Below, piece by piece: positions 1,991 through 21,401 of a DNA stretch of 32,000 bases. Within the stretch, counting starts at the first letter, position 1. Every line of letters starts with the position of its first letter. The notes under the pieces are model-generated. The model was not told the origin of the DNA. It searched no databases and worked only from the letters and a program-made list of their open reading frames with translations. A program made the position numbers and the translations under genes. The stretch comes from Acaryochloris marina MBIC11017 (GTDB lineage Bacteria > Cyanobacteriota > Cyanobacteriia > Thermosynechococcales > Thermosynechococcaceae): assembly GCF_000018105.1 (NCBI RefSeq), contig NC_009925.1:2730001-2762000 (forward strand), written 5' to 3'.

Positions 1991-2255
1991 CTCACTCGCT
2001 ATTCATTAACTCACTTCAGAGGATTTCATTCAAGAAAACTGCCAAGAACGGTATTTAAAGCATTTTTTGCAACTTACCGACGAAGATAAAGCTCAAATAC
2101 CTTCTATAACTAACATTATTTAGGACCAATACTCGCCTCTTTTAGAAGGTAAACTTGGAAAGAATACTTGGGCACTCAATTTTTAATATCGCCAAAGAAC
2201 ATTGATTAAGGCCTTTTTACCTGAAGGCTTAACACCTTTCATCTTCGAGAACCGC

Positions 2256-2840
2256 ATGAGGATCCTACTCTTAGCTCCACATCCATTTTTCCAGACCCGT
2301 GGTACACCGATCGCAGTTGATCTTATGCTCAGAGTGCTATCAGAGCGGGGAGATCAGATTGACATGCTGACTTTTCCAGAAGGGGATGATGTCGTTTATG
2401 ACAACGTGCGGATCTACCGGACTCCCAAATTACCATTTATTAAAAATATCAGTCCAGGTTTTTCTGGGAAAAAACTGGTCTGTGATGGTTTTATGCTGAT
2501 TCAGGCTATTAACCTTTGCTGGAAGTATAAATATGATATCGTTCATTCGGTTGAAGAATCAGCTTTTATTGCGTTAGTGCTGAAAGTCGTGTTTAGAACA
2601 CCCTATATCTATGATATGGACTCATCCTTGGCACAGCAAATGATTGAGAAGTTTGCATTTCTCTCCTCTTTACGGTTTCTCTTCAATGCGTTTGAAAGAC
2701 TAGCCGTTCGACAAGCCAAAGTGGTGATACCCGTTTGCGAAACCTTATCTGAAGATATTCAAGTCTACCAACCGAAGAGAGTGGTTGTTTTACCAGACAT
2801 TTCGCTTTTAGATTACTCTGCCCCAAATAACAAGGCATAA
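2256..2840 (+). CDS. GT4 (GT-B fold) glycosyltransferase, N-terminal acceptor domain only
   Basis: MRILLLAPHPFFQTRGTPIAV is a typical GT4 N-domain start. The ORF ends at TAA 2838-2840 exactly where the interdomain linker is expected. The track start TTG 2202 is probably too far upstream. Confidence 0.7.
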   Translation: MRILLLAPHPFFQTRGTPIAVDLMLRVLSERGDQIDMLTFPEGDDVVYDNVRIYRTPKLPFIKNISPGFSGKKLVCDGFMLIQAINLCWKYKYDIVHSVEESAFIALVLKVVFRTPYIYDMDSSLAQQMIEKFAFLSSLRFLFNAFERLAVRQAKVVIPVCETLSEDIQVYQPKRVVVLPDISLLDYSAPNNKA

Positions 2841-2862
2841 CTGATGAACAGAATCATCTGCA

Positions 2863-3507
2863 GTGATGAAATATCACTCGGCCAATATGAATAATATCCC
2901 TGAAAATATCAGAGCGCACTGTCAGCCTGATGAGCTTATTCTAATGTACATTGGCAATTTAGAACTTTACCAGGGGATTGATTTGCTGCTGGATGGTTTT
3001 AAATCAGCTCAAAATCTCGCCCTGAAGGTTGCTTTAAAACTTGTCATTATTGGCGGCAAAGATGGCGACATTGCAAAATATAAGTTAAAAACGAAAAATA
3101 TTGGCATTGACCACCAAGTTTTATTTTTAGGGCAGCGCTCGGTCGAGAATCTCGGCCACTATCTTGCTCAAGCAGACATTCTGCTCTCCCCTCGCATTAA
3201 AGGGAGAAACACCCCAATGAAATTGTATTCTTACCTTGATAGCGGCAAGCCCGTCTTAGCCACAGATTTGCCAACACACAATTGGGTTCTGGATAAAGAG
3301 GTTGCGGTGTTAAGCGCGCCTAATCCCGAAGCGTTTGCTCAAGGAATCCTCTACCTCGCCAACAACCCTCAAGTTCGGCAAACTCTCGCCGTTGCCGCCA
3401 AGCATATGGTGCAAAAGCGGCACTCGTTTACGGCTTATAAGCAAAAATTGAATAGCTTATATGATTCATTACAGTTAGAGTTTAACAATGCTGCCTCACC
3501 TCGCTAA
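2863..3507 (+). CDS. GT4 (GT-B fold) glycosyltransferase, C-terminal donor-binding domain only
   Basis: LILMYIGNLELYQGIDLL, LVIIGG, and ADILLSPRIKGRNTPMKLYSYLDSGKPVLATDL (Glycos_transf_1-like). It is in a different frame from the upstream half. Confidence 0.7.
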   Translation: MMKYHSANMNNIPENIRAHCQPDELILMYIGNLELYQGIDLLLDGFKSAQNLALKVALKLVIIGGKDGDIAKYKLKTKNIGIDHQVLFLGQRSVENLGHYLAQADILLSPRIKGRNTPMKLYSYLDSGKPVLATDLPTHNWVLDKEVAVLSAPNPEAFAQGILYLANNPQVRQTLAVAAKHMVQKRHSFTAYKQKLNSLYDSLQLEFNNAASPR

Positions 3508-3550
3508 CATGCTCTACTTCCAGCCCCAGCGCTAGGATGCCACTGATTTT

Positions 3551-5260
3551 ATGAAACGAAATTTAGAGGAATTATCTAACACTAAATTTGACGTCCTCGT
3601 CATAGGCGGCGGCATTTATGGAGCTTGTGTCGCCTATGAAGCAACCTTAAGAGGCCTGTCCGTTGCATTAGTGGAAAAACAAGATTTTTGTGGGGCGACC
3701 TCCGCAAATAGTCTAAAAACCATCCACGGAGGCTTACGCTATCTACAGCATGCTGACTTTAAACGGATGCGCGAGTCTATCTACGAGCGGCGCACCTTAA
3801 TGAAAATTGCCCCTCACCTCATACATCCCTTGCCTGTATTGGTGCCCACCTACGGCCATGGATTGAAAGGCATAGAAGCGATGACGGTGGCCCTGAAAAT
3901 TAATGATTTAGTGAGTTGCGATCGCAACCTCGGCTTGCCCGATCCTCAAAAGCACATTCCGACGGGTCAAACCCTATCCCCCACAGAATGTCTCAACACC
4001 TTACCCGGTATCTCCGCCGATGGCTTAACAGGTGGTGCTATCTTTCACGATGCTCAGGTCTACAATTCTGAACGTTTGGTGCTTGCCTATTTACAGTCTG
4101 CCACTCAACTCGGATTACAAGCCGCCAACTATTTGGAAGTCACTGGTTTTTTACAAACTGGCTCTACCATTTGTGGCGTGCAAGTGACAGATGCTTTAAC
4201 AGCAGACACCTTTGATATTCAGGCTAAAGCGATCATTAATACCAGCGGCCCCTGGATTAATCAAGTCCTTGGACTCCTCAAGCCGCCTCTTACAAATCAT
4301 CAGCCCTTTGCATTAGCCATGAACTTGGTCACTCGATCGCTCTTTGATCATGACTACGCCATCGGCCTCTACAGCAAGGCTGACTACACAGATAAAGATG
4401 CCATTCTCAAGCGCAAGAATCGGTTACTCTTCATCGCACCTTGGCAAGGGTGTTCTCTCATAGGTACAACCTACTCCCACTACCCTGGAACTCCCGATCA
4501 GTTATCAGTACCCCAGAACGAAGTGCAACACTTGCTGGATGACATCAATAATGCCTATCCACCCGCAAACCTAACCCCTCAGGATGTGTATTGGGTACAT
4601 CAAGGTCTACTGCCCAGTAGCCACTCCCAAGAGACGACTAATGTCCAATTAACCAAGCATTACCACGTTCAGGATTATCAAAAAGAAGGTTTCAACGGCC
4701 TTATCTCCGTTACCGGAGTGAAGTATACAACTGCTAGACACGTCGCCATCCATGCCGTTGATACTGCAGTAGCCATGTTACAAAAGCCAGTTACACTCTC
4801 CCAATCGGCTCAACACCCCTTACAGGGTGGAGCGATTGAAAACCTCAGCGAATTCTTGCAACACGGACAAAAGCAACTAGACCACATCACTGATTGTCAG
4901 TCCGTCCAGCATTTTCTCTACAATTACGGCACAACCTATTCATCCGTTCTTAAACAGGTTCAGCACGGTCAACGGGCCACCTCACAACTAGATCTACTAC
5001 AAGCACAAGTCACCTATGCAATTGAAGAAGAAATGGCGCACACTCTAAGCGACGTTATCTTTAGACGCACGGGTATCGGTGGGGCCCAAATGCCAACCCC
5101 TGCAGAGTTGCAAACTTGCGCAGATGTTATGTCAAAGACCCTGCTGTGGAGTCAGTCTAGAGTAGAACAAGAAATCTCAGACGTGACATCTAGGTGGTCT
5201 TGGTCTATTCCTAAACCACCCTCAGTGGGAGAACAAACAGCAACTATTCAGGGAATATAG
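3551..5260 (+). CDS. FAD-dependent oxidoreductase, glycerol-3-phosphate dehydrogenase/oxidase (GlpD/GlpO)-like
   Basis: N-terminal FAD fold DVLVIGGGIYGACVAYEATLRGLSVALVEKQDF, then SANSLKTIHGGLRYL. The C-terminal FRRTGIG segment resembles the GlpD C-domain. Confidence 0.8.
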   Translation: MKRNLEELSNTKFDVLVIGGGIYGACVAYEATLRGLSVALVEKQDFCGATSANSLKTIHGGLRYLQHADFKRMRESIYERRTLMKIAPHLIHPLPVLVPTYGHGLKGIEAMTVALKINDLVSCDRNLGLPDPQKHIPTGQTLSPTECLNTLPGISADGLTGGAIFHDAQVYNSERLVLAYLQSATQLGLQAANYLEVTGFLQTGSTICGVQVTDALTADTFDIQAKAIINTSGPWINQVLGLLKPPLTNHQPFALAMNLVTRSLFDHDYAIGLYSKADYTDKDAILKRKNRLLFIAPWQGCSLIGTTYSHYPGTPDQLSVPQNEVQHLLDDINNAYPPANLTPQDVYWVHQGLLPSSHSQETTNVQLTKHYHVQDYQKEGFNGLISVTGVKYTTARHVAIHAVDTAVAMLQKPVTLSQSAQHPLQGGAIENLSEFLQHGQKQLDHITDCQSVQHFLYNYGTTYSSVLKQVQHGQRATSQLDLLQAQVTYAIEEEMAHTLSDVIFRRTGIGGAQMPTPAELQTCADVMSKTLLWSQSRVEQEISDVTSRWSWSIPKPPSVGEQTATIQGI

Positions 5261-5262
5261 CT

Positions 5263-5802
5263 ATGCCTTCTCCCATTGCTCACTCAGCAACCGCATATTT
5301 CCTATACAAAATCACACCTCAGAAAAATCGCTCTATAAAATTAGATCGACATCATTTTATTGATCTTGCCTACGTCATCGTCATTGGAAACATCGCTGAT
5401 TTAGACTTTATTCCGCATCTAATCTTAGAGGGAAGTTTTCACCGAGGTCCTTCCCATAGTCTCTGCATTGCCTTACTGATCAGTCTAGGCTGTAGCCTTA
5501 TTTTCAAATGGTTCCATAAATCAACCTTCCGACGATGGTTTTTACTCACGATTGGAATCTATGTCTCTCATCTTGTTCTAGATTTCTGGACAGCCGGAGG
5601 CTCTGGGATGCAATTACTCTGGCCTTTTACAGATGCTTTTATCAAATCGCCAATTGCTTTTTTCCCTAGTGTTAGGCATTCTGAAGGACTATTCTATCCA
5701 GGTCATATCTTCTTTATCACCTTTGAGACAATTTACAGTATCGTTCTACTGCTATTCATTAATCGATACCAAAAATATAAACGACCAAATCAAAATACTT
5801 AA
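5263..5802 (+). CDS. Membrane-bound metal-dependent hydrolase (DUF457/YdjM-like)
   Basis: N-terminal PSPIAHS, an HRGPSHS motif and several hydrophobic helices. It starts 3 nt after the preceding stop. Confidence 0.7.
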   Translation: MPSPIAHSATAYFLYKITPQKNRSIKLDRHHFIDLAYVIVIGNIADLDFIPHLILEGSFHRGPSHSLCIALLISLGCSLIFKWFHKSTFRRWFLLTIGIYVSHLVLDFWTAGGSGMQLLWPFTDAFIKSPIAFFPSVRHSEGLFYPGHIFFITFETIYSIVLLLFINRYQKYKRPNQNT

Positions 5803-5838
5803 ACCCTCAAAACAATATTGAAATCCAGATAGTCTCTA

Positions 5839-6690
5839 GTGAATATGCACGACTCACAACCATCCCTGATCTTTGTCGATGCCCATGTGCACCTGCATCA
5901 CTGTTTTGCCATACAAACAGTGCTCGATTCAGCATTACGGAATTTCCAAGATAATGTCTCAAACATGACGACCAACTTACAGCATCAACTTGGGGTTCTA
6001 GTCATCAATGAGATAGGACAACAGAATTCATTTGCACAATTACGAGCAGACGTATCTCACCAACAAGCGATCACCCTTAATGACTGGACCTTACAAGTCA
6101 CACCTGAACAAGAGTCACTAGTCGCTCAACATTCCACCGGTCAGCAAATTCTGCTTATTGTGGGCCGTCAAATCGTCACCAGCGAAAAGATCGAAGTCTT
6201 ATCACTCTTTTCAAGTACGACCATCCCTGAGCAGCAATCCTTAGAAAAAACACTACTCAATATACGTACGGCCGGGGGGTTAGCAGTCCTGCCTTGGGGA
6301 TTTGGTAAATGGTTTGGGAAACGAGGTAAGTTAGTTAATCAAGTGATCCAAGACAGGAATCCAACTGAGATTTTGATCGGCGACAACGGCAATCGGCCCG
6401 GTTTTTGGATTAATCCCGTGTATCTAAATAAAGCGAAAAAAAAGGGCATCAAGGTATTACCAGGGACAGATCCCTTACCTTTAGCCACAGAAGTACACCG
6501 TCCTGGAAGTTTCGGGTTCTATACTCAAGGGATAATTGAACCCAACCGTCCTGCAGCTTGTCTCAAGCAAATACTGATAGATCCAAACGCCAGTATTCAC
6601 CCCTATGGATCGCTGGAAACACCATTTCGCTTTATTAATAATCAAATTCAATTTAGACTGCAAAAGAAAAAAAGCAAAGCAGTTGAATAA
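5839..6690 (+). CDS. Hypothetical protein with an N-terminal HxH metal-site-like motif (FVDAHVHLHH)
   Basis: Long ORF in operon context. The HxH motif recalls amidohydrolase/PHP-type hydrolases, but I cannot assign a family. ATG 5845 is an alternative start. Confidence 0.55.
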   Translation: MNMHDSQPSLIFVDAHVHLHHCFAIQTVLDSALRNFQDNVSNMTTNLQHQLGVLVINEIGQQNSFAQLRADVSHQQAITLNDWTLQVTPEQESLVAQHSTGQQILLIVGRQIVTSEKIEVLSLFSSTTIPEQQSLEKTLLNIRTAGGLAVLPWGFGKWFGKRGKLVNQVIQDRNPTEILIGDNGNRPGFWINPVYLNKAKKKGIKVLPGTDPLPLATEVHRPGSFGFYTQGIIEPNRPAACLKQILIDPNASIHPYGSLETPFRFINNQIQFRLQKKKSKAVE

Positions 6691-6829
6691 TGGGGGCAAG
6701 CCCAAAAATTGTTGTACCTATAACGCCTGGAATAGCTGGACCGAATCCTTTCATTTAATCTCAAATAGCAACACACTAGATTGAACGTTAGCCCAAGAAA
6801 ATATCACGCTCTTTTACTCATTAATTAAG

Positions 6830-7561
6830 ATGCAACCGGAGAACAAATTTTTAGAAACAGCAGATATAGAAACATCTTCAGATGACTATGCTTCTCGTTT
6901 TCAAGGGCCAACTGGTGAGTGGCTACTACACATCCAAGAGCAAGCAACCCTTTCTATGCTGACTCAATATCCCAACGCCAGCATTTTAGATGTGGGTGGG
7001 GGACATGGGCAGCTCACCGAAGCCTTAATCAACAAAGGGTTTGCACTCACCGTTTTGGGTAGTAGCCTATCTTGCCAAAACCGTATCAAACCTTATATCG
7101 ACGCTGGACAATGCGAGTTCAAGGTTGGAGATGTTTTAAGCTTGCCGTATCCAGACAACACCTTCGACATTGTCGTTAGTTATCGATTTCTAGCACATGT
7201 GAACCAATGGCAAGCGTTCTTATCTGAGCTAGGACGTGTTGCCAAAACAGCCGTGCTTGTCGATTACCCCACGACTCGTAGCATCAACTACTTATCACCG
7301 CTATTATTCAAATTCAAAAAAGGTGTAGAGGGCAATACTCGGCAATTCATTTGTTACCAAGAGAAAGAGTTATTAGACTTTTGCAGCAGCATTGGGTTAG
7401 AGAAGGACAATCGTCATCCACAATTTTTTTGGCCGATGGTGCTACATCGAATGTTGAAGCAACCTAAAGTTTCAGAACTTTTAGAGAATCCTGTGAAGAA
7501 GCTCGGTTTAACTTACATATGGGGCTCTCCAGTGATTACCAGATTTCATAAAGTGCATTAA
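6830..7561 (+). CDS. Class I SAM-dependent methyltransferase
   Basis: Motif I ILDVGGGHGQL and a post-I acidic/hydrophobic pattern FDIVVSYRFLAH. Confidence 0.8.
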   Translation: MQPENKFLETADIETSSDDYASRFQGPTGEWLLHIQEQATLSMLTQYPNASILDVGGGHGQLTEALINKGFALTVLGSSLSCQNRIKPYIDAGQCEFKVGDVLSLPYPDNTFDIVVSYRFLAHVNQWQAFLSELGRVAKTAVLVDYPTTRSINYLSPLLFKFKKGVEGNTRQFICYQEKELLDFCSSIGLEKDNRHPQFFWPMVLHRMLKQPKVSELLENPVKKLGLTYIWGSPVITRFHKVH

Positions 7562-7619
7562 TCTATTGATGACTCAATTTCATCATTAATCTAACTATCA
7601 ACATCTATATCACTACTGT

Positions 7620-8654
7620 ATGTCTTCAACAACAGCTACCGAGAACACCATTAGTCCTGGTCAACGTGTTTTAGTAACTGGAGCAACTGGCTATACAGGC
7701 AGCACCTTAGTCCAAAAACTGCTAAACCAGAATGTCGAGGTTGTTGCAATAGCTCGTCCATCCTCTGATTTAAGCCGTTGGCAAGATGCGCCCATTCGAT
7801 GGATTCAAGGAGATGTTTTTGATCCAAAGCTCATTCAGGAGGCGATGGAAGGAGTGAACTATATATTTCATATGGTCACCCCATTTCGGGAAGCAAAGTC
7901 ATCTGATGATGTTTATTACAATGTCCATGTTAAAAGTACACAGTTACTAGCGAACGAAGCCTTGAAGCAACCCGACTTCAAGCGCTTTGTTCATATCTCG
8001 ACAATCGGAGTTCATGGACATATCGAAAATCCTCCTGCTGATGAGACCTATAGAACTTCTCCTGGAGATTTATACCAATCCACCAAATTAGAAGGTGAAA
8101 TATGGATCAAGCAATTTGGTGCGGAAACTGGGCTCCCCATAACCATCATTAGACCTGCAGGCATTATCGGTCCTGGCGAAAAGAGACTGCTAAAAATCTA
8201 CAAGATGGTTTGTTCTGGTTTAGTACCTGCCATTGGTAATGGAGGCAACCTACTGCATTTAATTCACGTTGATGATTTGACCAACTGTTTTTTACTAGCA
8301 TCCCAACATCCAAATGCAGTGAATGAAATCTTCATCTGTGGAAATCAAGACTCGATTTCTTTCAAAGAAATGGTCAATCTCATCTCCAAGTACTACCAGA
8401 AAAAAGCCACACTTCTACAACTCCCTTCCGCCCCCTTATTTCTTCTGGGAGATATTCTTGAGTTTGTTTGTAAACCTTTAAATATCGAGCCTCCCATATA
8501 CCGGAGAAGACTTGCCTTTTACACCAAAGATCGGTCATTCAATGTTAACAAGCTTAAATCAAAACTAGGGTTTGTTCCCCAGCATTCAAATGAGCAGTGT
8601 ATTACTGAATTGGCACAGTGGTATTTAGAAGAAGGATGGACAAACATTAGCTAA
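7620..8654 (+). CDS. NAD(P)-dependent epimerase/dehydratase (extended SDR)
   Basis: Rossmann motif VTGATGYTGS, catalytic YQSTK (YxxxK), and a length of about 340 aa. Confidence 0.85.
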   Translation: MSSTTATENTISPGQRVLVTGATGYTGSTLVQKLLNQNVEVVAIARPSSDLSRWQDAPIRWIQGDVFDPKLIQEAMEGVNYIFHMVTPFREAKSSDDVYYNVHVKSTQLLANEALKQPDFKRFVHISTIGVHGHIENPPADETYRTSPGDLYQSTKLEGEIWIKQFGAETGLPITIIRPAGIIGPGEKRLLKIYKMVCSGLVPAIGNGGNLLHLIHVDDLTNCFLLASQHPNAVNEIFICGNQDSISFKEMVNLISKYYQKKATLLQLPSAPLFLLGDILEFVCKPLNIEPPIYRRRLAFYTKDRSFNVNKLKSKLGFVPQHSNEQCITELAQWYLEEGWTNIS

Positions 8655-8752
8655 TTTATACGAGTAGATAAAATTTACTGTTAGAGGTGACATTACGAAA
8701 CTATAATTCTTAGGTATCAATCTAATTAATGTAACACAATATTGTTCTAGTG

Positions 8753-10606
8753 ATGTTAGATGCTGACTTAAAGTCTCAACTCAGAGAAGCTCAAACTCAG
8801 ACTGATATTTTTAAAATATTGAAGCAAGTGAACTCTACAGACTTGTCAAGCTCAGATTACTTTTTTATTAGTAGAACTCTGAACAAAACAAATGTAGAAT
8901 CTAGCCTCAAAATTGCGTACTTCTCAAATTATACAATTGCTCCTCTGCCATCTTTCATTGAAGTACAGAGCGCTTTTCATACTATTGGTGTTAGGAGTTA
9001 TGTCGGAGAGTACAATCAGCATTATCAGGAAATTCTGAATCCAACTTCATCAGCACTAAGTTTCAAGCCAGATATCGCATTCTTATTATTATCACTGCAT
9101 GAATTATGCCCTACCCTACTCAATAGTTTTACCAGTCTGACCGATCAGCACAAACTAGATCAAAAAAATGTCATTCTTGAGCATATAGTGGACTGGGTAA
9201 ATCTCACTGTAGAGAAAACGAACGCTACAGTTTTTGTCAGTAATTTCTTACAACCGACCTTTCCATCTTTAGGAATTGCAGATAGTCAACAAGGCTATAG
9301 CGAAAATGAGTTTTATATTGAGCTCAACTTGGCATTACAAAAGAAATTTAGAGAAAACCCTAGGGTATACATTTTTGACATTGATAAGTTAGCCGCTAGA
9401 TATGGTAAGGAAGGTGCCATCAATCCAAAAATGTTTTTCATGGCTAAAGTTATTTGGCATGAAAAGTTTTTACCCACAATTGCTCAAGAATTTATTCGAT
9501 ATATCACTAGTTTCTTGGGTCAAACTAAAAAATGCTTGGTATTAGATCTCGATAATACGTTATGGGGAGGAGTGATTGGTGAGGATGGCATAGATGGTTT
9601 AAAGGTTGGAACAGGTGATCCAGTGAGTGAAGCTTATCTTGCTTTCCAATATAAGATTGCTGCCTTAAAAAACCGAGGCGTCATTCTGGGTATCTGCAGT
9701 AAGAACAATCAGGCCGATGCTCTAGAGGTTTTTGACAAGAAAGTCGACATGCCACTCAAACTCACTGATTTCTCAGCAAGTGAGATTAATTGGGAGCCTA
9801 AATATATCAATATTAAAAATATTGCCAAAAAGCTCAATATAGGGACCGAAAGCATACTTTTTATTGACGATAATCCTGTGGAATGCAGTCTGGTTTCTCA
9901 AGCACTACCTGAAGTCACAACGGTTCAACTACCAGCTGACCCAGCACTTTATGCAACTATTCTGGATAATATCCTTGTATTTGAGAAGTTTAATGTCCTC
10001 AGCGATGATCGCAATAAGGCACAGCAATATTCACAAAATGAGCAACGTCAAGAAGAAAAAGAAAGAATTGGAGACCTCAATACCTATCTTCATAGCTTAG
10101 AGACGAAAATTAAAATCCGCTTAGCTACGGATCAAGACTTACCGAGGGTCCATCAGCTGTTTTCGAAAACAAATCAATTCAACCTAACGACCATTCGTTA
10201 CTCAATGTCCGATATTGAGGATTTCCACAAGAATGAGCAAGATTCGATTATAGTTATCTCTGTTCAAGATAAATTTGGCGACTTGGGTACTGTAGGATTA
10301 TGCCTGCTCAAAAATCAAGAGCATCAACTTGTCATTGACAGTTTTATTTTGAGCTGTCGAGCCATGGGACGTGGGGTTGAAACAGCGTTGCTCAACTATG
10401 TCAAGCGTGAGTATCTATCTGGCCATCCTTCGTTGAAGCTGATTGGCTCTTATATTCCAACTAACAAGAATATGCCAACTAAAGACTTTTTTGAAGCACA
10501 AGGATTGACCCTGATCACTGAAAATAGTAGTGGTGAAAGGTATTATGAGATGCTTTCTGATGATGCATTAGAAATCCCTTGTCCCTGGATTAACGTTATT
10601 GATTAG
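8753..10606 (+). CDS. FkbH-like HAD-IIIC family protein (phosphatase/acyl-loading enzyme)
   Basis: HAD motif I LVLDLDNTLWGGVIGEDG, later FIDDNP, and a C-terminal LSCRAMGRGVE with the conserved Cys typical of FkbH-type enzymes. The track start is GTG 8750. Confidence 0.85.
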   Translation: MLDADLKSQLREAQTQTDIFKILKQVNSTDLSSSDYFFISRTLNKTNVESSLKIAYFSNYTIAPLPSFIEVQSAFHTIGVRSYVGEYNQHYQEILNPTSSALSFKPDIAFLLLSLHELCPTLLNSFTSLTDQHKLDQKNVILEHIVDWVNLTVEKTNATVFVSNFLQPTFPSLGIADSQQGYSENEFYIELNLALQKKFRENPRVYIFDIDKLAARYGKEGAINPKMFFMAKVIWHEKFLPTIAQEFIRYITSFLGQTKKCLVLDLDNTLWGGVIGEDGIDGLKVGTGDPVSEAYLAFQYKIAALKNRGVILGICSKNNQADALEVFDKKVDMPLKLTDFSASEINWEPKYINIKNIAKKLNIGTESILFIDDNPVECSLVSQALPEVTTVQLPADPALYATILDNILVFEKFNVLSDDRNKAQQYSQNEQRQEEKERIGDLNTYLHSLETKIKIRLATDQDLPRVHQLFSKTNQFNLTTIRYSMSDIEDFHKNEQDSIIVISVQDKFGDLGTVGLCLLKNQEHQLVIDSFILSCRAMGRGVETALLNYVKREYLSGHPSLKLIGSYIPTNKNMPTKDFFEAQGLTLITENSSGERYYEMLSDDALEIPCPWINVID

Positions 10607-10618
10607 GATTAATAAGTT

Positions 10619-10858
10619 ATGGCTGAAAATGGTGTCCAAGATAGAGTCAAGCTAGTTTTTTCTGACATTTTAGACATCGATCTTCAAACAATTTCAGATG
10701 ATCTTGGCCCTGATAACTGTGACAGTTGGGATTCTATGAATAATTTACGACTCATTACCGCTTTAGAAGAGGAATTTAGCATTAGCTTTTCCATGGAAGA
10801 AATCTCATCAATGGTCGATATAAGCCGGGTATTCGAGCTAATTGAGAGCAAAAGCTAG
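10619..10858 (+). CDS. Acyl carrier protein
   Basis: 79 aa and acidic, with the Ser attachment context DSWDSMNNLRLITALEEEF. It starts 12 nt after the FkbH-like stop. Confidence 0.8.
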   Translation: MAENGVQDRVKLVFSDILDIDLQTISDDLGPDNCDSWDSMNNLRLITALEEEFSISFSMEEISSMVDISRVFELIESKS

Positions 10859-10920
10859 ATTAACCCAGCATTAACCTTAGAATTGACCAATATATAAATA
10901 TCTTCAAGGAATATGCTTAA

Positions 10921-11448
10921 ATGAAAGCGAGTAAAATTGTTCGTAGATTTTTAGTTCCGTCACCTGTTATCACGCTATTTTATCTGGTTAAGTCTGGCGC
11001 AAAAATCAGCCCGAAAGCTGAGGTTGAGCTCAGCTCCTTTTTTACAATTGGTCGCCAATCGGTAATAAGTTCATTTACCAAGATTAAAGCATCTGAAGGA
11101 CCATTGAAGATTGGTTCAAATGTTTCTATTTCAACAGGATGCTTTATCAGTTCACATACGGGTGGACTTGAAATTGGTGATTACTGCTTAATTGGTCCAA
11201 ATGTAACCATAGTAGGTAATAATTATAACTATAGTAAAATTGATGTTCCCTTAGAACAACAAGGAATCATATCTAAGGGAATTAAGATTGGTAAGAATGT
11301 TTGGCTAGGTGCGGGGGTATGTGTTCTCGATGGAGCCACAATCGAAGATAATTGTATTATCACTCCTAATTCAGTTGTCTCATCCAATATTCCCGCTGGT
11401 GCGATCGCAAGTGGGCAACCAGCTAAGGTTATTTTTAAGCGTAGGTAG
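10921..11448 (+). CDS. Hexapeptide-repeat (left-handed beta-helix) acyl/acetyltransferase
   Basis: Repeating [LIV]G patterns: IGDYCLIGPNVTIVG, IKIGKNVWLGAGVCVLDGATIEDNCII. Confidence 0.85.
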   Translation: MKASKIVRRFLVPSPVITLFYLVKSGAKISPKAEVELSSFFTIGRQSVISSFTKIKASEGPLKIGSNVSISTGCFISSHTGGLEIGDYCLIGPNVTIVGNNYNYSKIDVPLEQQGIISKGIKIGKNVWLGAGVCVLDGATIEDNCIITPNSVVSSNIPAGAIASGQPAKVIFKRR

Positions 11449-11631
11449 TTTTCTAAAGAGAAGTTGCTGATTTATTTATTAAATCTATCTTCATTTCTAT
11501 TATTTTTTATGCGATATTATAGTTCTCATGTTAGTGATAATAAACCAGGAAGTTATTTAAACAAAGCATCATTAAAATCCACTAAATATGAATAATTAAC
11601 ATCAAGTTTCTTTGTTCTCTAAGCTTTAAAT

Positions 11632-12629
11632 ATGTGCTCATCTAGCATAAAAAATACTAGTCCTATTTTTATCTTCGGATCTGCACGGTCAGGGACGTCT
11701 TTACTGAGTCGGATTATTAATTCTCATCCTAGGATTTCAGTTCCATTTGAATCTCATTTATACGACACTTTCTATCCCTGGCTTAAGTATTATGGCGATT
11801 TGAATCTCTCTAAAAATCGAGAACGCTTAGTCGATGATATTTTAAGTATTGAATGTATGAGAGACTGGAGTCCAAGACCTGATCGAGAATGTGTTTTAGC
11901 AGAAATTTCACAAAATAACTTTGCTGGGATCGTAGATGGATTAATTCGATCATGGTCAATCAGCCAGGGAAAAAAAGATGGGGGGAAAAAACACCAGCCC
12001 ATGCTTTCTTTTGGCGTGAGATTTTGAGTGACTTTCCCAAGTGCAAGATTATTCATATTGTACGCGATGGTCGTGACTCATCCTTGTCATTAAAAAATGC
12101 TCGTTTTGGCCCTAAGCATTATTATCATTTAGCAAAAGCATGGGTTAAATATTTAAAAGTTATTGAAGCCTTAAAATCTGAAGTCAGTCGTGACTCTTTT
12201 TACGAGGTACGTTACGAAGACTTATTGTCTAATACTGACCATAAGTCTAGAGAAATATGCGATTTTATTGAGGAAGATTTTTCTGAAGAAATGCTCAGTT
12301 TTTATACTAATAGAAATCCATATCCAACTGATAAAGACAATCTTAGAAATCTAGCAAAGCCCATCATATCTAGCAATTCCAATAAATGGAAGAGTAGTAT
12401 GTCTCCTCGCGATCTGAGGATCTTTGAGTCAGTTGCTGGTCCTTACTTAGAGGCATATGGCTATGAAACAGTCATGAGTCATCCTAACATCTCCTCTATC
12501 GAGGAGGTATTAATTAAGTATTTTGAGCATCCTCCTAAGAAGATTTTATCTATGATCAAGAATAGAAAAGGCCATATTGATGGCTTGCGTAGGCTAGCCA
12601 TTTATACTCGTCTTGTTATTACTCAATAG
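11632..12629 (+). pseudogene. Sulfotransferase family protein in two overlapping frames (11632-12027 and 11952-12629); needs a -1 shift at the A7 run 11970-11976
   Basis: The 5'-PSB loop FGSARSGTS is in ORF1. RWGEKTP and the 3'-PB-like HIVRDGRDSSLS are in ORF2. My codon-by-codon reading shows that a -1 slip on GGA AAA AAA G gives a continuous SQGKKRWGEKTPAH. Confidence 0.8.
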
Positions 12630-12702
12630 TGTTATGCCCTTCATAAATCACGATTGAGTTATTGAAACATTGAATTTTTAAAATATATGCTAAATAACAA
12701 GC

Positions 12703-14199
12703 ATGAGTAAGTTCGTTAAGGGCGCTGGTATTTCATTTATTGGGCAACTTGGAAGCACTGGCTTAAAATATCTCACCCAAGTCACTCTAGCCTGGATTTT
12801 TGGAGCTGAAGTGTTTGGTTTATACACACTGGGGCTCGTTTTTTATCAATTTTGCGACTTGTTCGCCCGATTAGGCTTGGAGTTTGGGGCTGTACGTTAT
12901 GTTGCTATTAGCACGACTGCCGAAAGTCGACCCAAGTTAAAGGGGGTATTACTGACCGTACTGGGTCTCCCGTTTATGTTCGGGTGTGTTCTTGGAGGCA
13001 TGCTCTTTTATTCCTCTAGTTTGATTGCCACCGATATTTTCCAAAAACCAGCCTTAGCTGTTGTTCTACAAGTATTTTCACTCGCTATCCCTGTTGGAGC
13101 CAGCATGACTACAGGATCGTTTGCAACAACAGGGTTTCAAACGACTTTATATAGAGTCTTGGTATTTGACTTAATTGTACCCTTCACCAATCTACTCTTC
13201 GCTACTTGCTTAGGGTTAATCGGGTTCAGACTCTTTGGAGCATCTTTAGCTTGGTTAATCGCATTAATAGTGGGTTTAATACTGATCTTTTATTTTATTT
13301 ATAATCTGTTCCCAGATATAACTTCAAGCAAAGTAAAGCCCGCCTTTAACCTAAAAGAAATTATCAGTTTTTCTTTACCATTATCTTTTGGGACATTTGT
13401 TTGGCTACTCTTAATTTGGACTGATATTTTGATGCTGGGCTACTATAACAGTGCATCAGCAGTTGGGATTTATCGAGCTGCTTCACAAACTGCTTTTTTG
13501 ATGATCCTGTTTGATCGTTCTCTTATTACAATTTTTGCTCCTACAATTGCAAATCTATTTAACCAAGAAAAGTTATCAGAGGCTAATCAACTCTATAAAA
13601 CCTCTACTCGTTGGAATTTTATCCTAACTTTTCCGCTGTTTATTATACTCACCATTTCTAGCCAACATATACTCAAAATTTATGGTTCTGATTTTCAAGC
13701 TGCATGGATTATTCTAATTATCTTGGCGACTGGACAATTAACAAGATCAGGGGGCGGCGGCGTATGCATGCATATGTTAGCCATGTCCGGACATCAATAC
13801 TTAAAGCTATATGGTGATATTGCTTTAGCCATTACCAACATTACGCTTAATTTTTTGCTTATTCCCCTGTGGGGACCGCTAGGAGCATCGATCGCTACTG
13901 CATCTAGTATGGCTGGAATTAATTTGGTACGTGTGATTCAAGTCAAGTATGTTTTAGGAGTTTATCCATATTCGCTGCGTGATTTCAAAATCATCATTTG
14001 CGGTGTAGTTACTGCTATATCTGGTTACTTAATCCAGTATTTTTTGCATGATATTTCTTATTTACTGATAATTGCAATATCTGCACTTATTATGATATTT
14101 ATATATACTTCTATGCTATTTCTTACAGCGCTGAATGAAGATGATAAGCGACTTATCAATCAGTATAAAGTTAAGATTAATAAATTCATAAAAGCTTAA
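12703..14199 (+). CDS. wzx: MOP-superfamily polysaccharide flippase (Wzx-like)
   Basis: About 500 aa and highly hydrophobic, with around 12-14 predicted helices and a typical N-terminal GQLGSTGLKYLTQVTLAWIFG. Confidence 0.8.
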   Translation: MSKFVKGAGISFIGQLGSTGLKYLTQVTLAWIFGAEVFGLYTLGLVFYQFCDLFARLGLEFGAVRYVAISTTAESRPKLKGVLLTVLGLPFMFGCVLGGMLFYSSSLIATDIFQKPALAVVLQVFSLAIPVGASMTTGSFATTGFQTTLYRVLVFDLIVPFTNLLFATCLGLIGFRLFGASLAWLIALIVGLILIFYFIYNLFPDITSSKVKPAFNLKEIISFSLPLSFGTFVWLLLIWTDILMLGYYNSASAVGIYRAASQTAFLMILFDRSLITIFAPTIANLFNQEKLSEANQLYKTSTRWNFILTFPLFIILTISSQHILKIYGSDFQAAWIILIILATGQLTRSGGGGVCMHMLAMSGHQYLKLYGDIALAITNITLNFLLIPLWGPLGASIATASSMAGINLVRVIQVKYVLGVYPYSLRDFKIIICGVVTAISGYLIQYFLHDISYLLIIAISALIMIFIYTSMLFLTALNEDDKRLINQYKVKINKFIKA

Positions 14200-14667
14200 A
14201 TATATCCAGAAAGCACTATTAGTATAAAAGCTAGCCAAGAACAGCAAGTTTTGATAGGGATAGGGCCTTATACTTTAACGAGTTATTGTGTGATATAACT
14301 TCACTCGTTTGTAAGCCTCAACAGATCTTTGGATTAATGTTAAATGGCTGTGGAAAAAGACTAAAAAGCTTTGATTCGTTCGCTGCATACATTGAGCCAG
14401 TAGCATAGAATGAAGCGAAGATTACCAGAGATTGAGCGTTTTAGCCATATCATTAAACCCTAGCTTTGATCACGCCAAAGTGTTTTTACTGGTAGATTAT
14501 AATCATAATTCCAAGGTTGCAGCATATCTCATCAACATCACCCAAAACGCTATTTCTTCATGGGTAGCTGACTTTTAGCGATGACTAAAACGTACATAAT
14601 CAAGCTTAGCATTCCAGTTCTGGGGCTAGAATCATGCTTTGTCAAAGTAGTCGTAATACCAATTCAC

Positions 14668-15234
14668 TTATTGAGTGACCTTTATAGTCAAAGCATCCAA
14701 GATATAAGAATATCCCGTTAGAGAAGCCACCACCTTCTGGGAGAGGGTATTGATATGCTCAAATAAAGCGGTCTCCAGTGCCCCAATAGAATCAAAGTTT
14801 TTGCCTTTGAAAGGCTTTCTTAGGTCCTGCCATAATCGCTCTGCCGGATTGAGTTCTGGACTATGAGACGGCTGTACAATCGGCAACACATTCTCAGGCC
14901 ATCGAACCCAAGTCGCCATATGGGCTGCGGCTTGATCTATTTGCATCAGATTGAGACTCTGGGGAAACGCCAAGCTGAATTGCTCCAGGAAGCGCTCAAA
15001 ACAAACACTATCGAGATGAGAAAACCGATAGAAGAAACTGTCTCCTGTGAGAGGTTCGACAGCGCCATAGAGCCAGAAAGCCTCTCGGGGCCACTGTACC
15101 GTCACCACAGGTTTGACACCCCGCAACGTTAGAACCCGACCCGTGAGTGTCTTGAGTCCCCAGCGGCTTTCATCCATGCACCAGTAGCGCACTGGGTGTC
15201 CTTGGGCAAAATAGCGGGTCATTACCTCAATCAC
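14668..15234 (-). CDS. IS630 transposase, DDE catalytic part (orfB)
   Basis: WCMDESRWGL carries the first Asp, NLMQIDQAAAH follows, and the LNPAERLWQDLRK signature is present. It is in the +1 frame relative to orfA, and the junction sits at TATTAAAAAAC. Confidence 0.85.
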   Translation of the reverse strand: MIEVMTRYFAQGHPVRYWCMDESRWGLKTLTGRVLTLRGVKPVVTVQWPREAFWLYGAVEPLTGDSFFYRFSHLDSVCFERFLEQFSLAFPQSLNLMQIDQAAAHMATWVRWPENVLPIVQPSHSPELNPAERLWQDLRKPFKGKNFDSIGALETALFEHINTLSQKVVASLTGYSYILDALTIKVTQ

Positions 15235-15247
15235 ACGAGGAAGTTTT

Positions 15248-15727
15248 TTAATAGGCTTGTTGTTGAGCTTCCTCTGTCTTGCGTGAGCGAGGTCGAGGAA
15301 CTTTGAGCTTGGCTTTGAGCCGATAATGCACGGTTTGATGAACCGTTTTGTAGGGTACGTCTAATCCACACTCATCTAAAAGCCATTGTTGAATCGCCCC
15401 GTAGCTCTCAAAGCCCCTGGGGTCAGCTAGACGAGCTTTCAGCTTTTCGAGGACCTCTCCACCAATCATGGGGGGCTTCCCAGGAGAGGTAGGAATCTCC
15501 AGCATTGCCTGTAATCCCCCTGATTTATAGAGTTTGATCCAGCGATACACCGTGGATTCCCCTCGTCCGGTCAGGGTTGCCAACTCCATGCGAGTGGTGA
15601 CTTGACCACTTTTGAGCCAGTAGAGGGCTTGCAAGCGTTCTTTGCGACGACCGGAGGATTGTTGACGTAATAAACGTTTGAGTGTGTCTTCACTTTCACA
15701 GATATCAATTCGTAAGGGTCTGGGCAT
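15248..15727 (-). CDS. IS630 transposase, N-terminal HTH part (orfA)
   Basis: Winged-helix/HTH pattern TRMELATLTGRGESTVYRWIKLYKSGG. Confidence 0.85.
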   Translation of the reverse strand: MPRPLRIDICESEDTLKRLLRQQSSGRRKERLQALYWLKSGQVTTRMELATLTGRGESTVYRWIKLYKSGGLQAMLEIPTSPGKPPMIGGEVLEKLKARLADPRGFESYGAIQQWLLDECGLDVPYKTVHQTVHYRLKAKLKVPRPRSRKTEEAQQQAY

Positions 15728-16318
15728 GAGGGATAAGTATCAGCAACGCGCTACTCCCATAATACAAGTCACACATATATGGAATTGGTATAAGTCATGA
15801 ATAGCCTGAGTTAAGTGGTCTTTTCTATCTTTAGCCGTTCAATGTTACAAACACTTTTAAGAATATTCTGTTACTAGCTCAATTACAAAGATTCAATACC
15901 TGTAAAGTTCCTGAACCATGAGTCCACGTATTTCTAACTCCACCAGAAATGTTTCGGTACTACAGCTTTAGTGTCATTCGTCGATTTTTTTACTGAATTA
16001 CTTGCTTAGGAGACTGGCGCTATCAATTTACCAGCTAAGTTTAAATTTCATAATAAAGTCGAGTTTCAATCCCCTAGCTTTCTTCGTCCATTCTAGTGCG
16101 TTTGAAATCAGGGATTATTGCTGAATGTGTAGAAAAATATTAATTATTGGGAACACTAACTTAATAATACCAAAATTAACGCTCTATTAAAAGAGTACGA
16201 GATTACTTCTGGATGATTTATTAGGGAGTAGTCATTCGATAGTTATTTTTAGGCAAAATAACTTTAATTATTCCAGGTTTTTTACTTAAGCAACAAATCA
16301 AATATCTTTCAGAAAACT

Positions 16319-17497: not shown

Positions 17498-17549
17498 TTT
17501 TCTATTAGCATCATCATCTAGATAATAGACAATTACTCTAGAAATCACT

Positions 17550-17582
17550 TATGTTTCTCACTGCCAGTATGTTTCTCACTGC
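17550..17582. repeat. Two tandem copies of TATGTTTCTCACTGC with an 18-bp period
   Basis: Read directly: 17550-17564 and 17568-17582 are identical. The repeat lies in the 91-bp gap between convergent genes. Confidence 0.9.
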
Positions 17583-17588
17583 AATAAA

Positions 17589-18800: not shown

Positions 18801-19759
18801 TAGTTCATTAATTTAAGATATAAGTGAATACTTACATTCAAGACTCAACAAGGTATTGAGTAGCTATCAACTATCAAACTTGAATCACTTGATATAGTAG
18901 AAGCATCTGAGCAATCGACATTATTAAATTGAGGCGTTGCTACTTTAGATTAGCAAATTAAAAATAACTGTGGCTAGTGATCGTTATGTTGTCGTACTAT
19001 GCTAATCAATTTAGTTAATACTTCTGACTTTCGTTTATGCATGGAGTCAGCCAATACATCACTACTTCAATTGTTTTACCAGCATCAGAGCAATCTTTCT
19101 GCTCGGATTATGCCATTCTATCAAGCTATTTGATTCTGCAGATATTGAGCTAGCCAACCTTTAAGCTCACCGAGTAGAACAATAGAAGGTGTCATTGTAT
19201 ATGATGAAATTCTTTACTCTCACCTAGAATCTGAGGTGTTCAATGACTGTCTACTGGTGCAATATCAAATTTTGGAACTTCTCATTAATACTGTCATAAA
19301 TATTTGAGGCAAAGTGTAAGGATATCAGTGGCGATGACTCATACTAATTTCATCAATAAATATGGCCATATGGACACCAATTGACTTTATTCAATGCACA
19401 TCATCACATACTAAAGCGAAGTATGTAACTCATGTCTGAAGGAAATAGACCGTGCACTTTCTGATCTCAGCCAGCCATTGCATCGTCTAAGGTAATCCTC
19501 AATAGAAATTTCAACACTCATAACATGGGCAACTATCGACGATCTAACGCTTGTATGGCAAAGTGAGGCTGTTTACAGTACCCAACGGTTAAAACCTACG
19601 ACGTCACTAGCTGATCTTCTTAGGCTCATTGCTGAGAGACATCTTGCGAGGTGAAGCTTTTCACTGTCATGTAGTTTATAGAAATAGTTCCACACTTACG
19701 GATTTTTAAGATTATGCTGCTTTTCAATTGTTGTAAGCATATCTTCTTATCAACCCAAT

Positions 19760-21286: not shown

Positions 21287-21352
21287 ATGTATTAGAGAAA
21301 TTGCTATCACTCTTATACGTGTTCAGTAAAAACAAGAAGACTTTCCACATCA

Positions 21353-21395: not shown

Positions 21396-21401
21396 TTAGA
21401 A

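What the first reader, a model, noticed from the sequence alone, without database searches (positions are those of the whole stretch)
8753..11448. FkbH-like loader, stand-alone ACP and LbH acyltransferase are embedded in a Wzx-type polysaccharide locus
FkbH-type enzymes and dedicated ACPs are normally discussed in polyketide extender-unit supply. Here the trio is translationally close-packed (gaps of 12 and 62 nt) between sugar-modifying genes and a flippase. The FkbH-like protein keeps both the HAD DxDxT-type motif (DLDNTLWGG) and the C-terminal catalytic-Cys context (LSCRAMGRG), so it is probably active. An ACP-dependent non-acetyl acylation of a cyanobacterial exopolysaccharide would be an under-described type of decoration.
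Basis: partly seen in the sequence, partly recalled or inferred. Interest (0 to 1): 0.6.

Follow-up and report, generated by a model that had tools for sequence, protein, structure and literature searches.

The report
Carrier-protein glyceroyl cassette in polysaccharide locus
Three adjacent genes in a cyanobacterial surface-sugar locus probably load a three-carbon glycerate group from glycolysis onto a small carrier protein and attach it to a sugar; the gene set is widespread but has never been tested biochemically.

Summary
8753-10606 encodes an FkbH-type protein (TIGR01686, 301 bits against a cut-off of 147) with the DLDNT motif and an invariant Cys. 10619-10858 encodes a small carrier protein with an invariant WDS serine. 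10921-11448 encodes a 175-aa hexapeptide-repeat (LbH) transferase. The gaps are 12 and 62 nt.

The trio is a mobile cassette. In 78 species genomes from many phyla, a carrier-protein gene lies directly after the FkbH gene in 64. None of these loci has a polyketide megasynthase.

The LbH belongs to a tight 174-176-aa clade, 55-66% identical across phyla. In all 14 loci I examined it sits beside FkbH-ACP, including 4 of 4 chosen from the LbH side. The clade has no conserved histidine, so it lacks the catalytic His of maltose/galactoside O-acetyltransferases.

The cassette also carries a specific GT4 glycosyltransferase, which is split in two here. It often carries a GlpD-like flavoenzyme, a PHP-fold phosphoesterase and an SDR as well.

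Some relatives have a MaoC dehydratase plus ketoreductase, which suggests a lactyl route. This genome has none, so I favour a glyceroyl group, possibly O-methylated.

The donor, the acceptor and the O- versus N-linkage are all inferred. This scan has already followed up the same trio in other Acaryochloris genomes.

The parts
2202..2840 (+). N-terminal half of the cassette's GT4 glycosyltransferase (separate ORF)
   Evidence: Glyco_trans_4_4 and Glyco_transf_4. It is 50-54% identical to the N-half of the single-ORF GT4 that sits beside FkbH in L007, L008, L096, L097 and L098. The same split is present in L089, L090 and L025.
2863..3507 (+). C-terminal half of the same GT4
   Evidence: Glycos_transf_1 at 73.7 bits. 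It is 44-54% identical to the C-half of the cassette GT4 in five loci from other phyla. This GT4 clade is in 11 of 14 LbH175 loci against 1 of 74 other FkbH loci.
3551..5260 (+). GlpD-like FAD oxidoreductase (DAO + DAO_C), an accessory gene of the cassette
   Evidence: DAO scores 137 bits and DAO_C 73 bits. The glycerol-3-phosphate dehydrogenase model scores 251 bits, below its cut-off of 360. The genome has a second GlpD-like gene with a better DAO_C score. Orthologues are in 8 of 14 LbH175 loci and 0 of 74 other FkbH loci.
5263..5802 (+). YdjM-family membrane protein
   Evidence: PF04307 at 64 bits. It is present in the six cyanobacterial cassette loci only.
5839..6690 (+). PHP-fold metal-dependent phosphoesterase-like protein with no Pfam family
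   Evidence: No Pfam or NCBIfam hit. The family has 2,364 representative clusters. D14, H16, H18 and D211 are invariant. The model has pLDDT 94.8. The best Foldseek matches are PHP phosphoesterases: PsfC 7rty at E 9.5e-7, and TM0559. It is in 9 of 14 LbH175 loci against 0 of 74 others.
6830..7561 (+). Class I SAM methyltransferase (optional partner)
   Evidence: Methyltransf_11 at 52.5 bits. It is present in L089, L007 and L009 and absent in L090.
7620..8654 (+). Extended SDR (HpnA / 3-beta-HSD / OleD-like), an accessory gene of the cassette
   Evidence: Epimerase PF01370 at 117 bits and HpnA model at 136 bits, below its cut-off. Orthologues are in 11 of 14 LbH175 loci against 0 of 74 others.
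8753..10606 (+). FkbH-like loader: N-domain + HAD-IIIC phosphatase + C-terminal Cys domain
   Evidence: TIGR01686 at 301.5 bits against a cut-off of 146.65. The DLDNT motif and C536 are invariant. Residues 51-413 match PDB 3SLR, an uncharacterised Bacteroides fragilis protein, at E 1.5e-58.
10619..10858 (+). Dedicated acyl carrier protein
   Evidence: Weak PP-binding and ACP model hits. The WDS motif with Ser39 is invariant in 15 orthologues. The gene starts 12 nt after the FkbH stop.
10921..11448 (+). LbH175: His-less hexapeptide-repeat acyltransferase, the proposed acyl-ACP:sugar acyltransferase
   Evidence: Hexapep at 61 bits. The clade is 174-176 aa long and 55-66% identical across phyla. 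There is no conserved His in 114 sequences. It is always beside FkbH-ACP. The complex prediction with the ACP gave weak support: 0.47 against a best control of 0.00.
11632..12629 (+). Sulfotransferase, read as two frames in this assembly
   Evidence: Sulfotransfer_3 is matched in both pieces. The orthologue in L090 is intact at 332 aa. One extra A at 11969, seen in RNA-library contigs, gives a 332-aa ORF.
12703..14199 (+). Wzx-type flippase
   Evidence: Polysacc_synt PF01943 at 81 bits.

Best explanation
The trio is the core of a mobile sugar-plus-decoration cassette made of GT4, FkbH, ACP and LbH175.

Step 1 (inferred from family membership): the FkbH-like enzyme takes 1,3-bisphosphoglycerate. 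Its HAD domain removes the 3-phosphate, the glyceroyl group is captured on the conserved Cys, and it is then passed to the phosphopantetheine arm on Ser39 of the adjacent ACP.

Step 2 (inferred from gene content): this genome has no MaoC dehydratase/ketoreductase, so the group stays glyceroyl. The upstream methyltransferase may O-methylate it. Relatives that have MaoC plus KR would convert it to lactyl.

Step 3 (inferred from co-occurrence): the His-less LbH175 trimer takes the acyl group from the ACP instead of from acetyl-CoA. It transfers the group to a sugar of the repeat unit, most likely the residue added by the cassette's own GT4. This would happen on the cytoplasmic side, before Wzx flips the unit.

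Whether the bond is an ester or an amide is open. The GlpD-like flavoenzyme, the PHP-fold phosphoesterase and the SDR are cassette-specific accessories, and their step is unknown.
For: - The FkbH model scores 301.5 bits against a cut-off of 146.65, with the HAD motif and Cys invariant.
- The ACP serine motif is invariant.
- An ACP gene lies directly downstream of FkbH in 64 of 78 species loci from many phyla.
- None of the 78 loci has an ORF over 1,500 aa, and 53 carry glycan genes.
- The LbH175 clade is next to FkbH-ACP in 14 of 14 loci.
- LbH175 is more conserved across phyla (55-66% identity) than the FkbH (about 45%).
- LbH175 has no conserved His.
- The minimal cassettes L008, L097 and L098 contain no other candidate acyltransferase.
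- The cassette GT4 is orthologous across phyla.
- MaoC+KR lies between ACP and LbH in Okeania, Calothrix, L012 and L096, but the own genome has no orthologue.
- Three phosphopantetheinyl transferase genes are present in the genome.
- RNA-library contigs from one study cover 2000-14716 as one piece.
- Literature precedent: the flagellin sugar of C. jejuni 11168 carries an N-linked 2,3-di-O-methylglyceroyl group (PMC3068675), and its glycosylation locus holds the FkbH-domain gene cj1302 (PMC7099621).
Against: - There is no biochemical datum for any member of this ~620-aa FkbH type or of LbH175. The only solved relative (3SLR) is uncharacterised.
- The nearest characterised LbH relatives use acetyl-CoA.
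- The ACP scores below the curated thresholds.
- The acceptor sugar is unknown, and no glycerate-bearing polysaccharide is documented for this organism in what I could search.
- The tightly co-travelling GlpD-like, PHP-like and SDR genes have no place in this scheme. The acyl group or the acceptor may therefore differ from what I propose.
- RNA-library contigs do not prove transcription.
Confidence: 0.6

Rival explanations
1. The acyl group is oxidised on the carrier before transfer. The SDR and the GlpD-like flavoenzyme would act as functional analogues of FkbK and FkbI, with the methyltransferase standing in for FkbG. The LbH would then transfer a hydroxymalonyl (tartronyl), methoxymalonyl or stereo-inverted glyceroyl group to the glycan.
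For: The FAD enzyme, NAD(P) SDR and SAM methyltransferase lie in the same operon directly upstream of FkbH. The DAO and SDR co-occur specifically with this cassette: 8 of 14 and 11 of 14 loci against 0 of 74. The DAO is a paralogue of a second, better-scoring GlpD-like gene in the genome.
Against: The enzyme families differ from FkbI (an acyl-CoA dehydrogenase) and FkbK (a 3-hydroxyacyl-CoA dehydrogenase). The minimal cassettes lack all three genes. The methyltransferase is absent in L090. Several loci carry both MaoC+KR and DAO+SDR, which is hard to fit into one acyl pathway. The PHP-fold phosphoesterase travels with them, which points to a phosphorylated substrate and not an ACP thioester.
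Confidence: 0.15
2. LbH175 is an ordinary acetyl-CoA-dependent sugar acetyltransferase that merely neighbours FkbH-ACP. The glyceroyl-ACP is consumed by another enzyme, for example the GT4 or an unlinked acyltransferase.
For: The best sequence matches are maltose and galactoside O-acetyltransferases and WbbJ. The complex prediction gave only weak support.
Against: Co-occurrence is strict in both directions, and the genes are translationally coupled with the ACP. None of 200 other cyanobacterial genomes had a full-length LbH175. The family's catalytic His is missing. The minimal four-gene cassette has no alternative acyltransferase.
Confidence: 0.12
3. The FkbH-ACP pair supplies a glycerate-derived unit to a polyketide or tetronate pathway, as in the classical systems, and the polysaccharide context is coincidental.
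For: All characterised FkbH enzymes that I know of serve polyketide, tetronate or methoxymalonyl pathways (own knowledge). Other cyanobacteria have FkbH domains fused inside ORFs of 2,100-2,900 aa.
Against: No ketosynthase or megasynthase is in the 32-kb window or in any of 78 related loci. The cassette is embedded in Wzx, glycosyltransferase or exosortase-type loci in several phyla.
Confidence: 0.03

Closest known systems
FkbH/FkbJ step of the methoxymalonyl-ACP pathway, and OzmB- and Tmn16-type glyceryl-ACP loaders of polyketide and tetronate pathways (own knowledge of the literature)
   Same: Same enzyme family (TIGR01686 above the cut-off). It has a HAD phosphatase motif, a conserved Cys, and a dedicated stand-alone ACP next door.
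   Different: There is no polyketide synthase, FkbI, FkbK or tetronate-forming enzyme. The protein is about 620 aa with an extra FkbH_N domain. The consumer is an LbH transferase in a glycan locus.
[quoted passage not shown]
   Same: A glycan carries a (methylated) glyceroyl group, and an FkbH-domain gene sits in the glycan locus beside a gene annotated as an epimerase (PMC3068675, PMC7099621). Here too the FkbH gene has a methyltransferase and an epimerase-type SDR just upstream.
   Different: In Campylobacter the target is a nonulosonic acid on a protein, and the acyl group is N-linked. The papers I read do not show experimentally that cj1302 makes the glyceroyl group. I could not compare the sequences.
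Maltose / galactoside O-acetyltransferase and WbbJ/WcaF-type LbH sugar acetyltransferases
   Same: Left-handed beta-helix hexapeptide fold and a similar size. These are the best sequence matches.
   Different: All curated model scores are below their cut-offs. The catalytic His is not conserved, and there is no conserved His anywhere in 114 clade members. The conserved basic ends (R9, and R174-R175) and the strict linkage to an ACP suggest an acyl-ACP donor.
LpxA / LpxD (acyl-ACP-dependent LbH acyltransferases of lipid A synthesis)
   Same: These are LbH enzymes that take their acyl group from an ACP and place it on a sugar O or N (own knowledge). LpxD and LpxA models give weak hits.
   Different: The hits are distant (33-51 bits), there is no LpxD-type C-terminal ACP-docking domain, the protein is much smaller, and there is no catalytic His.

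Membership tests
FkbH family (TIGR01686) | Whole-protein score above the curated cut-off | tested here: met
   301.5 bits against 146.65. This is in the same range as polyketide-embedded copies in other cyanobacteria (277-318 bits).
FkbH family (TIGR01686) | HAD motif I (DxDxT) and the other HAD-IIIC motifs | tested here: met
   D266, D268, T270, S317-K318 and D373-D374 are invariant in a 12-sequence alignment. TIGR01681 scores 74.5 bits.
FkbH family (TIGR01686) | Conserved Cys in the C-terminal domain, the acyl-enzyme site in characterised members (own knowledge) | tested here: met
   C536 in S535-C536-R537 is invariant. Its catalytic role was not tested.
FkbH family (TIGR01686) | Forms glyceryl-S-ACP from 1,3-bisphosphoglycerate | not testable with these tools
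   This needs an in vitro loading assay.
Acyl carrier protein (PF00550 / TIGR00517) | Score above the curated cut-off | tested here: not met
   PF00550 scores 18.1 bits against 20.8, and NCBIfam ACP models score at most 27 bits against about 70. The paralogous ACP of the second locus does pass, at 28.7 bits.
Acyl carrier protein (PF00550 / TIGR00517) | Conserved DS(L/M) serine for phosphopantetheine at the start of helix 2 | tested here: met
   W37-D38-S39 is invariant or nearly so in 15 orthologues, spaced from the ALEEEF helix as in AcpP.
MAT / GAT / WbbJ LbH O-acetyltransferases | Hexapeptide-repeat left-handed beta-helix | tested here: met
   PF00132 at 61.3 bits. PDB matches to maltose and galactoside O-acetyltransferases at E 1e-16 to 1e-11.
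MAT / GAT / WbbJ LbH O-acetyltransferases | Catalytic histidine in the loop before the last coils | tested here: not met
   In the alignments to 3srt and 4dcl, the His falls on S106 or N101. No His is conserved in 114 clade members; the best is H79 at 44%.
MAT / GAT / WbbJ LbH O-acetyltransferases | Curated family score (WbbJ NF007240, WcaF, Maa, LacA) | tested here: not met
   Best is 77.7 bits against a cut-off of 243.
Methoxymalonyl-ACP pathway (fkbGHIJK) | FkbI (acyl-CoA dehydrogenase family) and FkbK (3-hydroxyacyl-CoA dehydrogenase family) partners | tested here: not met
   The flavoenzyme is GlpD-like (DAO/DAO_C), and the dehydrogenase is an extended epimerase-type SDR.
Methoxymalonyl-ACP pathway (fkbGHIJK) | A polyketide synthase that consumes the extender unit | tested here: not met
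   None in the window. No ORF over 1,500 aa in 78 related loci.

The most novel reading that the evidence does not exclude
GT4, FkbH, ACP and the His-less LbH175 form a previously uncharacterised, horizontally mobile class of polysaccharide acylation system. It would draw a C3 hydroxy-acid directly from glycolysis, carry it on a dedicated ACP, and install it on a sugar. The transferase would be an LbH that has exchanged acetyl-CoA and its catalytic His for an acyl-ACP donor. The co-travelling GlpD-like, PHP-fold and SDR trio would add a further, still unknown chemical step. If so, this would explain how glycerate and lactate acyl groups get onto bacterial and archaeal exopolysaccharides.
Probability: 0.45. 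Interest if true: 0.7.

Novelty: new variant of a known kind. Interest (0 to 1): 0.55.

Why it matters
Acyl decorations control the physical properties of polysaccharides, their antigenicity, and their recognition by phages. Acetyl, pyruvyl and succinyl groups have known enzymes. In the papers I could search, no biosynthetic route was described for glyceroyl or lactyl acyl groups on glycans.

This cassette gives a concrete, testable four-gene route. It is present in hundreds of species, from cyanobacteria to Acidobacteriota, Planctomycetota and archaea.

It would give genome annotators a marker for predicting non-acetyl acylation of exopolysaccharides.

Tried and rejected
- **First genome scan.** The first scan of genome contigs with the single protein confirmed no locus. 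The repeat with an alignment worked.
- **Single-sequence fold.** The single-sequence fold of the 283-aa protein was useless (pLDDT 34). I repeated it with an alignment.
- **Literature searches.** Searches for HAD-IIIC, for FkbH plus glycan terms, and for gellan glycerate acyltransferase gave nothing relevant. The Moraxella hit for 'fkbh' was a substring artefact.
- **Complex prediction.** The LbH175 trimer with the ACP scored 0.47 against a best control of 0.00. The runs agreed in at least 78% of contacts, and the partner's pLDDT was at least 82. The tool grades this as weak support. The mark was reached by 58 of 80 solved complexes and 2 of 110 mismatches, but scores at or under 0.60 came from only 7 of those 80 and from both mismatches. 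My own alignments and three copies were used, so these counts hold only roughly. I give it little weight.
- **RNA-library contigs.** They cover the block but cannot show transcription, level or strand.
- **De-N-acetylation idea.** I considered a de-N-acetylation then N-glyceroylation scheme using the CE4 deacetylase at 17589-18800. A deacetylase is present in only about 4 of 14 LbH175 loci within the flanks fetched, so I did not adopt it.
- **Campylobacter and gellan comparison.** I could not compare the sequence with C. jejuni cj1302 or with gellan-producing Sphingomonas, because no tool reaches named genomes.
Full report
**1. Observation**

The window lies at 2.73 Mb on the main contig of an 8.36-Mb cyanobacterial genome. 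The closest named proteins are from Acaryochloris marina.

On the + strand, ORFs run almost without gaps from 2202 to 14199. The three genes of the finding are at the stated coordinates.

- **FkbH-like gene, 8753-10606.** It scores 301.5 bits on TIGR01686 (cut-off 146.65) and 74.5 bits on the HAD-IIIC model. The Pfam FkbH_N domain covers residues 80-249. In an alignment of 12 homologues from cyanobacteria, Acidobacteriota, Proteobacteria and the genome's own paralogue, D266, D268, T270, S317-K318, D373-D374 and C536 are invariant.
- **ACP, 10619-10858.** The 79-aa product is only a sub-threshold match to ACP models. However, its W-D-S motif is invariant or nearly so in 15 orthologues, and it is spaced from the following acidic helix as in AcpP.
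- **LbH, 10921-11448.** It encodes a 175-aa hexapeptide-repeat protein.
- **Gaps.** The intergenic gaps are 12 and 62 nt.
- **Context.** Upstream are a SAM methyltransferase and an extended SDR. Downstream are a sulfotransferase and a Wzx flippase. A second Wzx, a GT4 and a CE4 deacetylase follow.

**2. The trio is a conserved cassette**

The ~620-aa FkbH type is a very large family. 7,995 of 8,000 scored candidates passed E 1e-3, and typical identity across phyla is about 45%.

These include Asgard and thaumarchaeal archaea.

I called ORFs in the 78 best loci and searched them with the window's proteins.

| Feature near the FkbH gene | Loci (of 78) |
|---|---|
| ACP gene directly downstream (within 300 nt, same strand) | 64 |
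| ACP gene within 1.2 kb on the same strand | 70 |
| LbH gene within 3 kb | 32 |
| At least one glycan gene that I could recognise | 53 |
| ORF longer than 1,500 aa | 0 |

Half of the eight loci without an ACP end within 600 bases after the FkbH gene. The absence of long ORFs means no polyketide megasynthase is nearby.

In a sample of 201 cyanobacterial species genomes, 19 have an FkbH match above the cut-off. They are a mix of polyketide-embedded domains, short stand-alone forms and this long form. The gene is therefore sporadic, as expected for a mobile island. The region from 8 to 24 kb is also AT-richer (GC 0.34-0.40) than its flanks (0.44-0.51).

**3. The LbH partner is a distinct clade tied to FkbH-ACP**

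Database homologues of the LbH form a tight group, 174-176 aa long. They are 55-66% identical across cyanobacteria, Gammaproteobacteria, Thermoanaerobaculia and Planctomycetota. That is more conserved than the FkbH itself.

All four lie directly after FkbH-ACP, and in three the LbH start overlaps or abuts the ACP stop. Together with the loci reached from the FkbH side, 14 of 14 LbH175 genes are next to FkbH-ACP. None of 200 other cyanobacterial genomes has a full-length match.

The clade has no conserved histidine in 114 sequences. In alignments to solved maltose and galactoside-type O-acetyltransferases, the catalytic His falls on a Ser or Asn of the conserved GNNYxY loop. Conserved positions instead include R9, E34, K54, K56, N94, Y102, Y104, Q114, D137, N150 and a basic C-terminal F-x-R-R.

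So LbH175 works like a sugar acyltransferase but fails a defining feature of the acetyl-CoA/His family. A structure prediction of the trimer with the ACP gave only weak support (0.47 against a best control of 0.00; details under Tried and rejected).

**4. The unit is larger than the trio**

Close relatives at 84% and 59% FkbH identity keep the same backbone from the AhpC gene to the LbH. Okeania, Calothrix, a Thioalkalispiraceae genome, an Acidobacteriota genome, a Planctomycetota genome and one further locus share subsets of the same genes in different orders.

| Gene | In 14 LbH175 loci | In 74 other FkbH loci |
|---|---|---|
| Cassette GT4 clade | 11 | 1 |
| Extended SDR | 11 | 0 |
| PHP-like protein | 9 | 0 |
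| GlpD-like flavoenzyme | 8 | 0 |

Six of the 14 loci are cyanobacterial, so the counts are not independent.

There are two architectures:
- A minimal GT4-FkbH-ACP-LbH175 set sits in exosortase-type loci.
- A full set adds the three accessory genes.

In this window the cassette's GT4 is the pair of ORFs at 2202-2840 and 2863-3507. Each half is about 50% identical to the matching half of the single-ORF GT4 of other phyla. The same split is kept in three other cyanobacterial genomes, so it is probably a functional two-piece enzyme.

The unannotated 283-aa protein belongs to a family of 2,364 representative clusters. It has an invariant D-x-H-x-H motif. It folds with pLDDT 94.8 and matches PHP-family metal phosphoesterases best. 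The language-model search also pointed to PHP proteins.

The flavoenzyme is a below-threshold relative of glycerol-3-phosphate dehydrogenase. It is a paralogue of a second, better-scoring gene elsewhere in the genome.

**5. Which acyl group?**

A MaoC dehydratase and a FabG-like ketoreductase lie between the ACP and the LbH in Okeania, Calothrix, the gammaproteobacterial locus and the Planctomycetota locus. They are fused in some loci and separate in others.

Dehydration of glyceroyl-ACP followed by ketoreduction gives lactyl-ACP. From my own knowledge, this is the logic proposed for FkbH-type loading modules of some polyketides. I did not test it here.

This window and its two nearest relatives lack these genes. 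The genome has no orthologue of the dehydratase half. I therefore favour an unmodified or O-methylated glyceroyl group here.

The methyltransferase at 6830-7561 is optional among relatives. It could act on the acyl group or on a sugar.

**6. Comparison with what is known**

- **Loading chemistry.** FkbH plus ACP is the known glyceryl-ACP step of methoxymalonyl-ACP and tetronate pathways. The family membership tests are met. The pathway membership tests (FkbI, FkbK, a polyketide synthase) are not met.
- **Glycan precedent.** The closest one I could document is Campylobacter jejuni NCTC 11168. Its flagellin sugar carries a 2,3-di-O-methylglyceroyl amide (PMC3068675). Its glycosylation locus contains the FkbH-domain gene cj1302 next to a gene annotated as an epimerase (PMC7099621). 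Neither paper shows that cj1302 makes the group.
- **Literature gap.** Full-text searches found no paper that describes an FkbH-ACP-LbH route for polysaccharides.
- **Solved structures.** The only solved relative, 3SLR from Bacteroides fragilis, is uncharacterised.

**7. Other support**

Three phosphopantetheinyl transferase genes are present elsewhere in the genome. RNA-seq library assemblies from one study of a near-identical strain hold a single contig covering 2000-14716. This is compatible with expression of the whole block but does not prove it.

**8. Earlier notes of this scan**

The scan holds 74 notes on FkbH-ACP cassettes in glycan loci in at least 72 genomes. Two of them are follow-ups of the same trio in other Acaryochloris genomes, with the same reading. 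These are not independent evidence.

What I add here:
- the reverse co-occurrence test;
- the His-less LbH175 clade;
- the cassette GT4 and its conserved split;
- the cassette-specific accessory trio with a PHP-fold assignment;
- the MaoC+KR presence/absence argument for glyceroyl against lactyl.

**9. Verdict**

It is a new variant of a known kind. The loading chemistry is known, but its consumer (an ACP-linked, His-less LbH in a mobile glycan cassette) is uncharacterised. The acyl group, the acceptor, the linkage type and the role of the three accessory enzymes remain inferred or unknown.

Noticed in passing
window 11632-12629 (A-run at 11968-11976): The sulfotransferase is in two frames in this assembly. 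RNA-library contigs of a near-identical strain carry one extra A after 11969. That extra A gives a single 332-aa ORF, the same length as the intact orthologue in L090. The break is therefore a homopolymer length difference: a strain variant, an assembly error or slippage.
   Followed up: partly
window 2202-3507: The GT4 is split at the interdomain linker into two ORFs. The split is conserved in L089, L090 and Calothrix L025, while Okeania and four non-cyanobacterial loci have a single ORF at about 50% identity. It looks like a maintained two-piece GT-B enzyme and not a pseudogene.
   Followed up: partly
window 11449-16318 compared with L089: The relative with an 84%-identical FkbH goes straight from the LbH to the GT4 that is at 16319 here. 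The sulfotransferase, the first Wzx and the split IS630-type transposase (14668-15727, minus strand) are therefore extra in this genome. The 59% relative L090 has sulfotransferase + Wzx but no IS.
   Followed up: partly
own genome C1:3664000-3684000 (L006): A second FkbH-ACP pair (FkbH model at 303 bits) lies in another Wzx locus. Its neighbours are a DegT aminotransferase, an AAC(3)-like acyltransferase, a methyltransferase, a glyoxalase/VOC protein and a WbmS-like deacetylase. This looks like an N-acylation variant of the same idea with a different transferase.
   Followed up: partly
L018, L019, L020, L022, L026 (Asgard archaea); L030, L035, L051, L055 (Thaumarchaeota): Archaeal genomes carry FkbH-ACP with a nearby LbH. 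In L018 a phosphopantetheinyl transferase lies directly upstream. In Thaumarchaeota a MaoC dehydratase follows the ACP. Carrier-protein chemistry is unusual in archaea.
   Followed up: no
L023, L028, L031, L037, L039, L048, L050, L056, L061, L063, L088 (Acidobacteriaceae): Here the ACP is followed by a 370-395-aa protein with no Pfam or NCBIfam match, then by a sulfotransferase and a FemAB-like GNAT.
   Followed up: no
It has an invariant DxHxH motif and a confident PHP-like fold. It has no Pfam or NCBIfam model.
   Followed up: yes
window 8000-24000: GC content is 0.34-0.40 across the decoration/export half of the locus, against 0.44-0.51 on both sides. This is consistent with a horizontally acquired island.
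   Followed up: no
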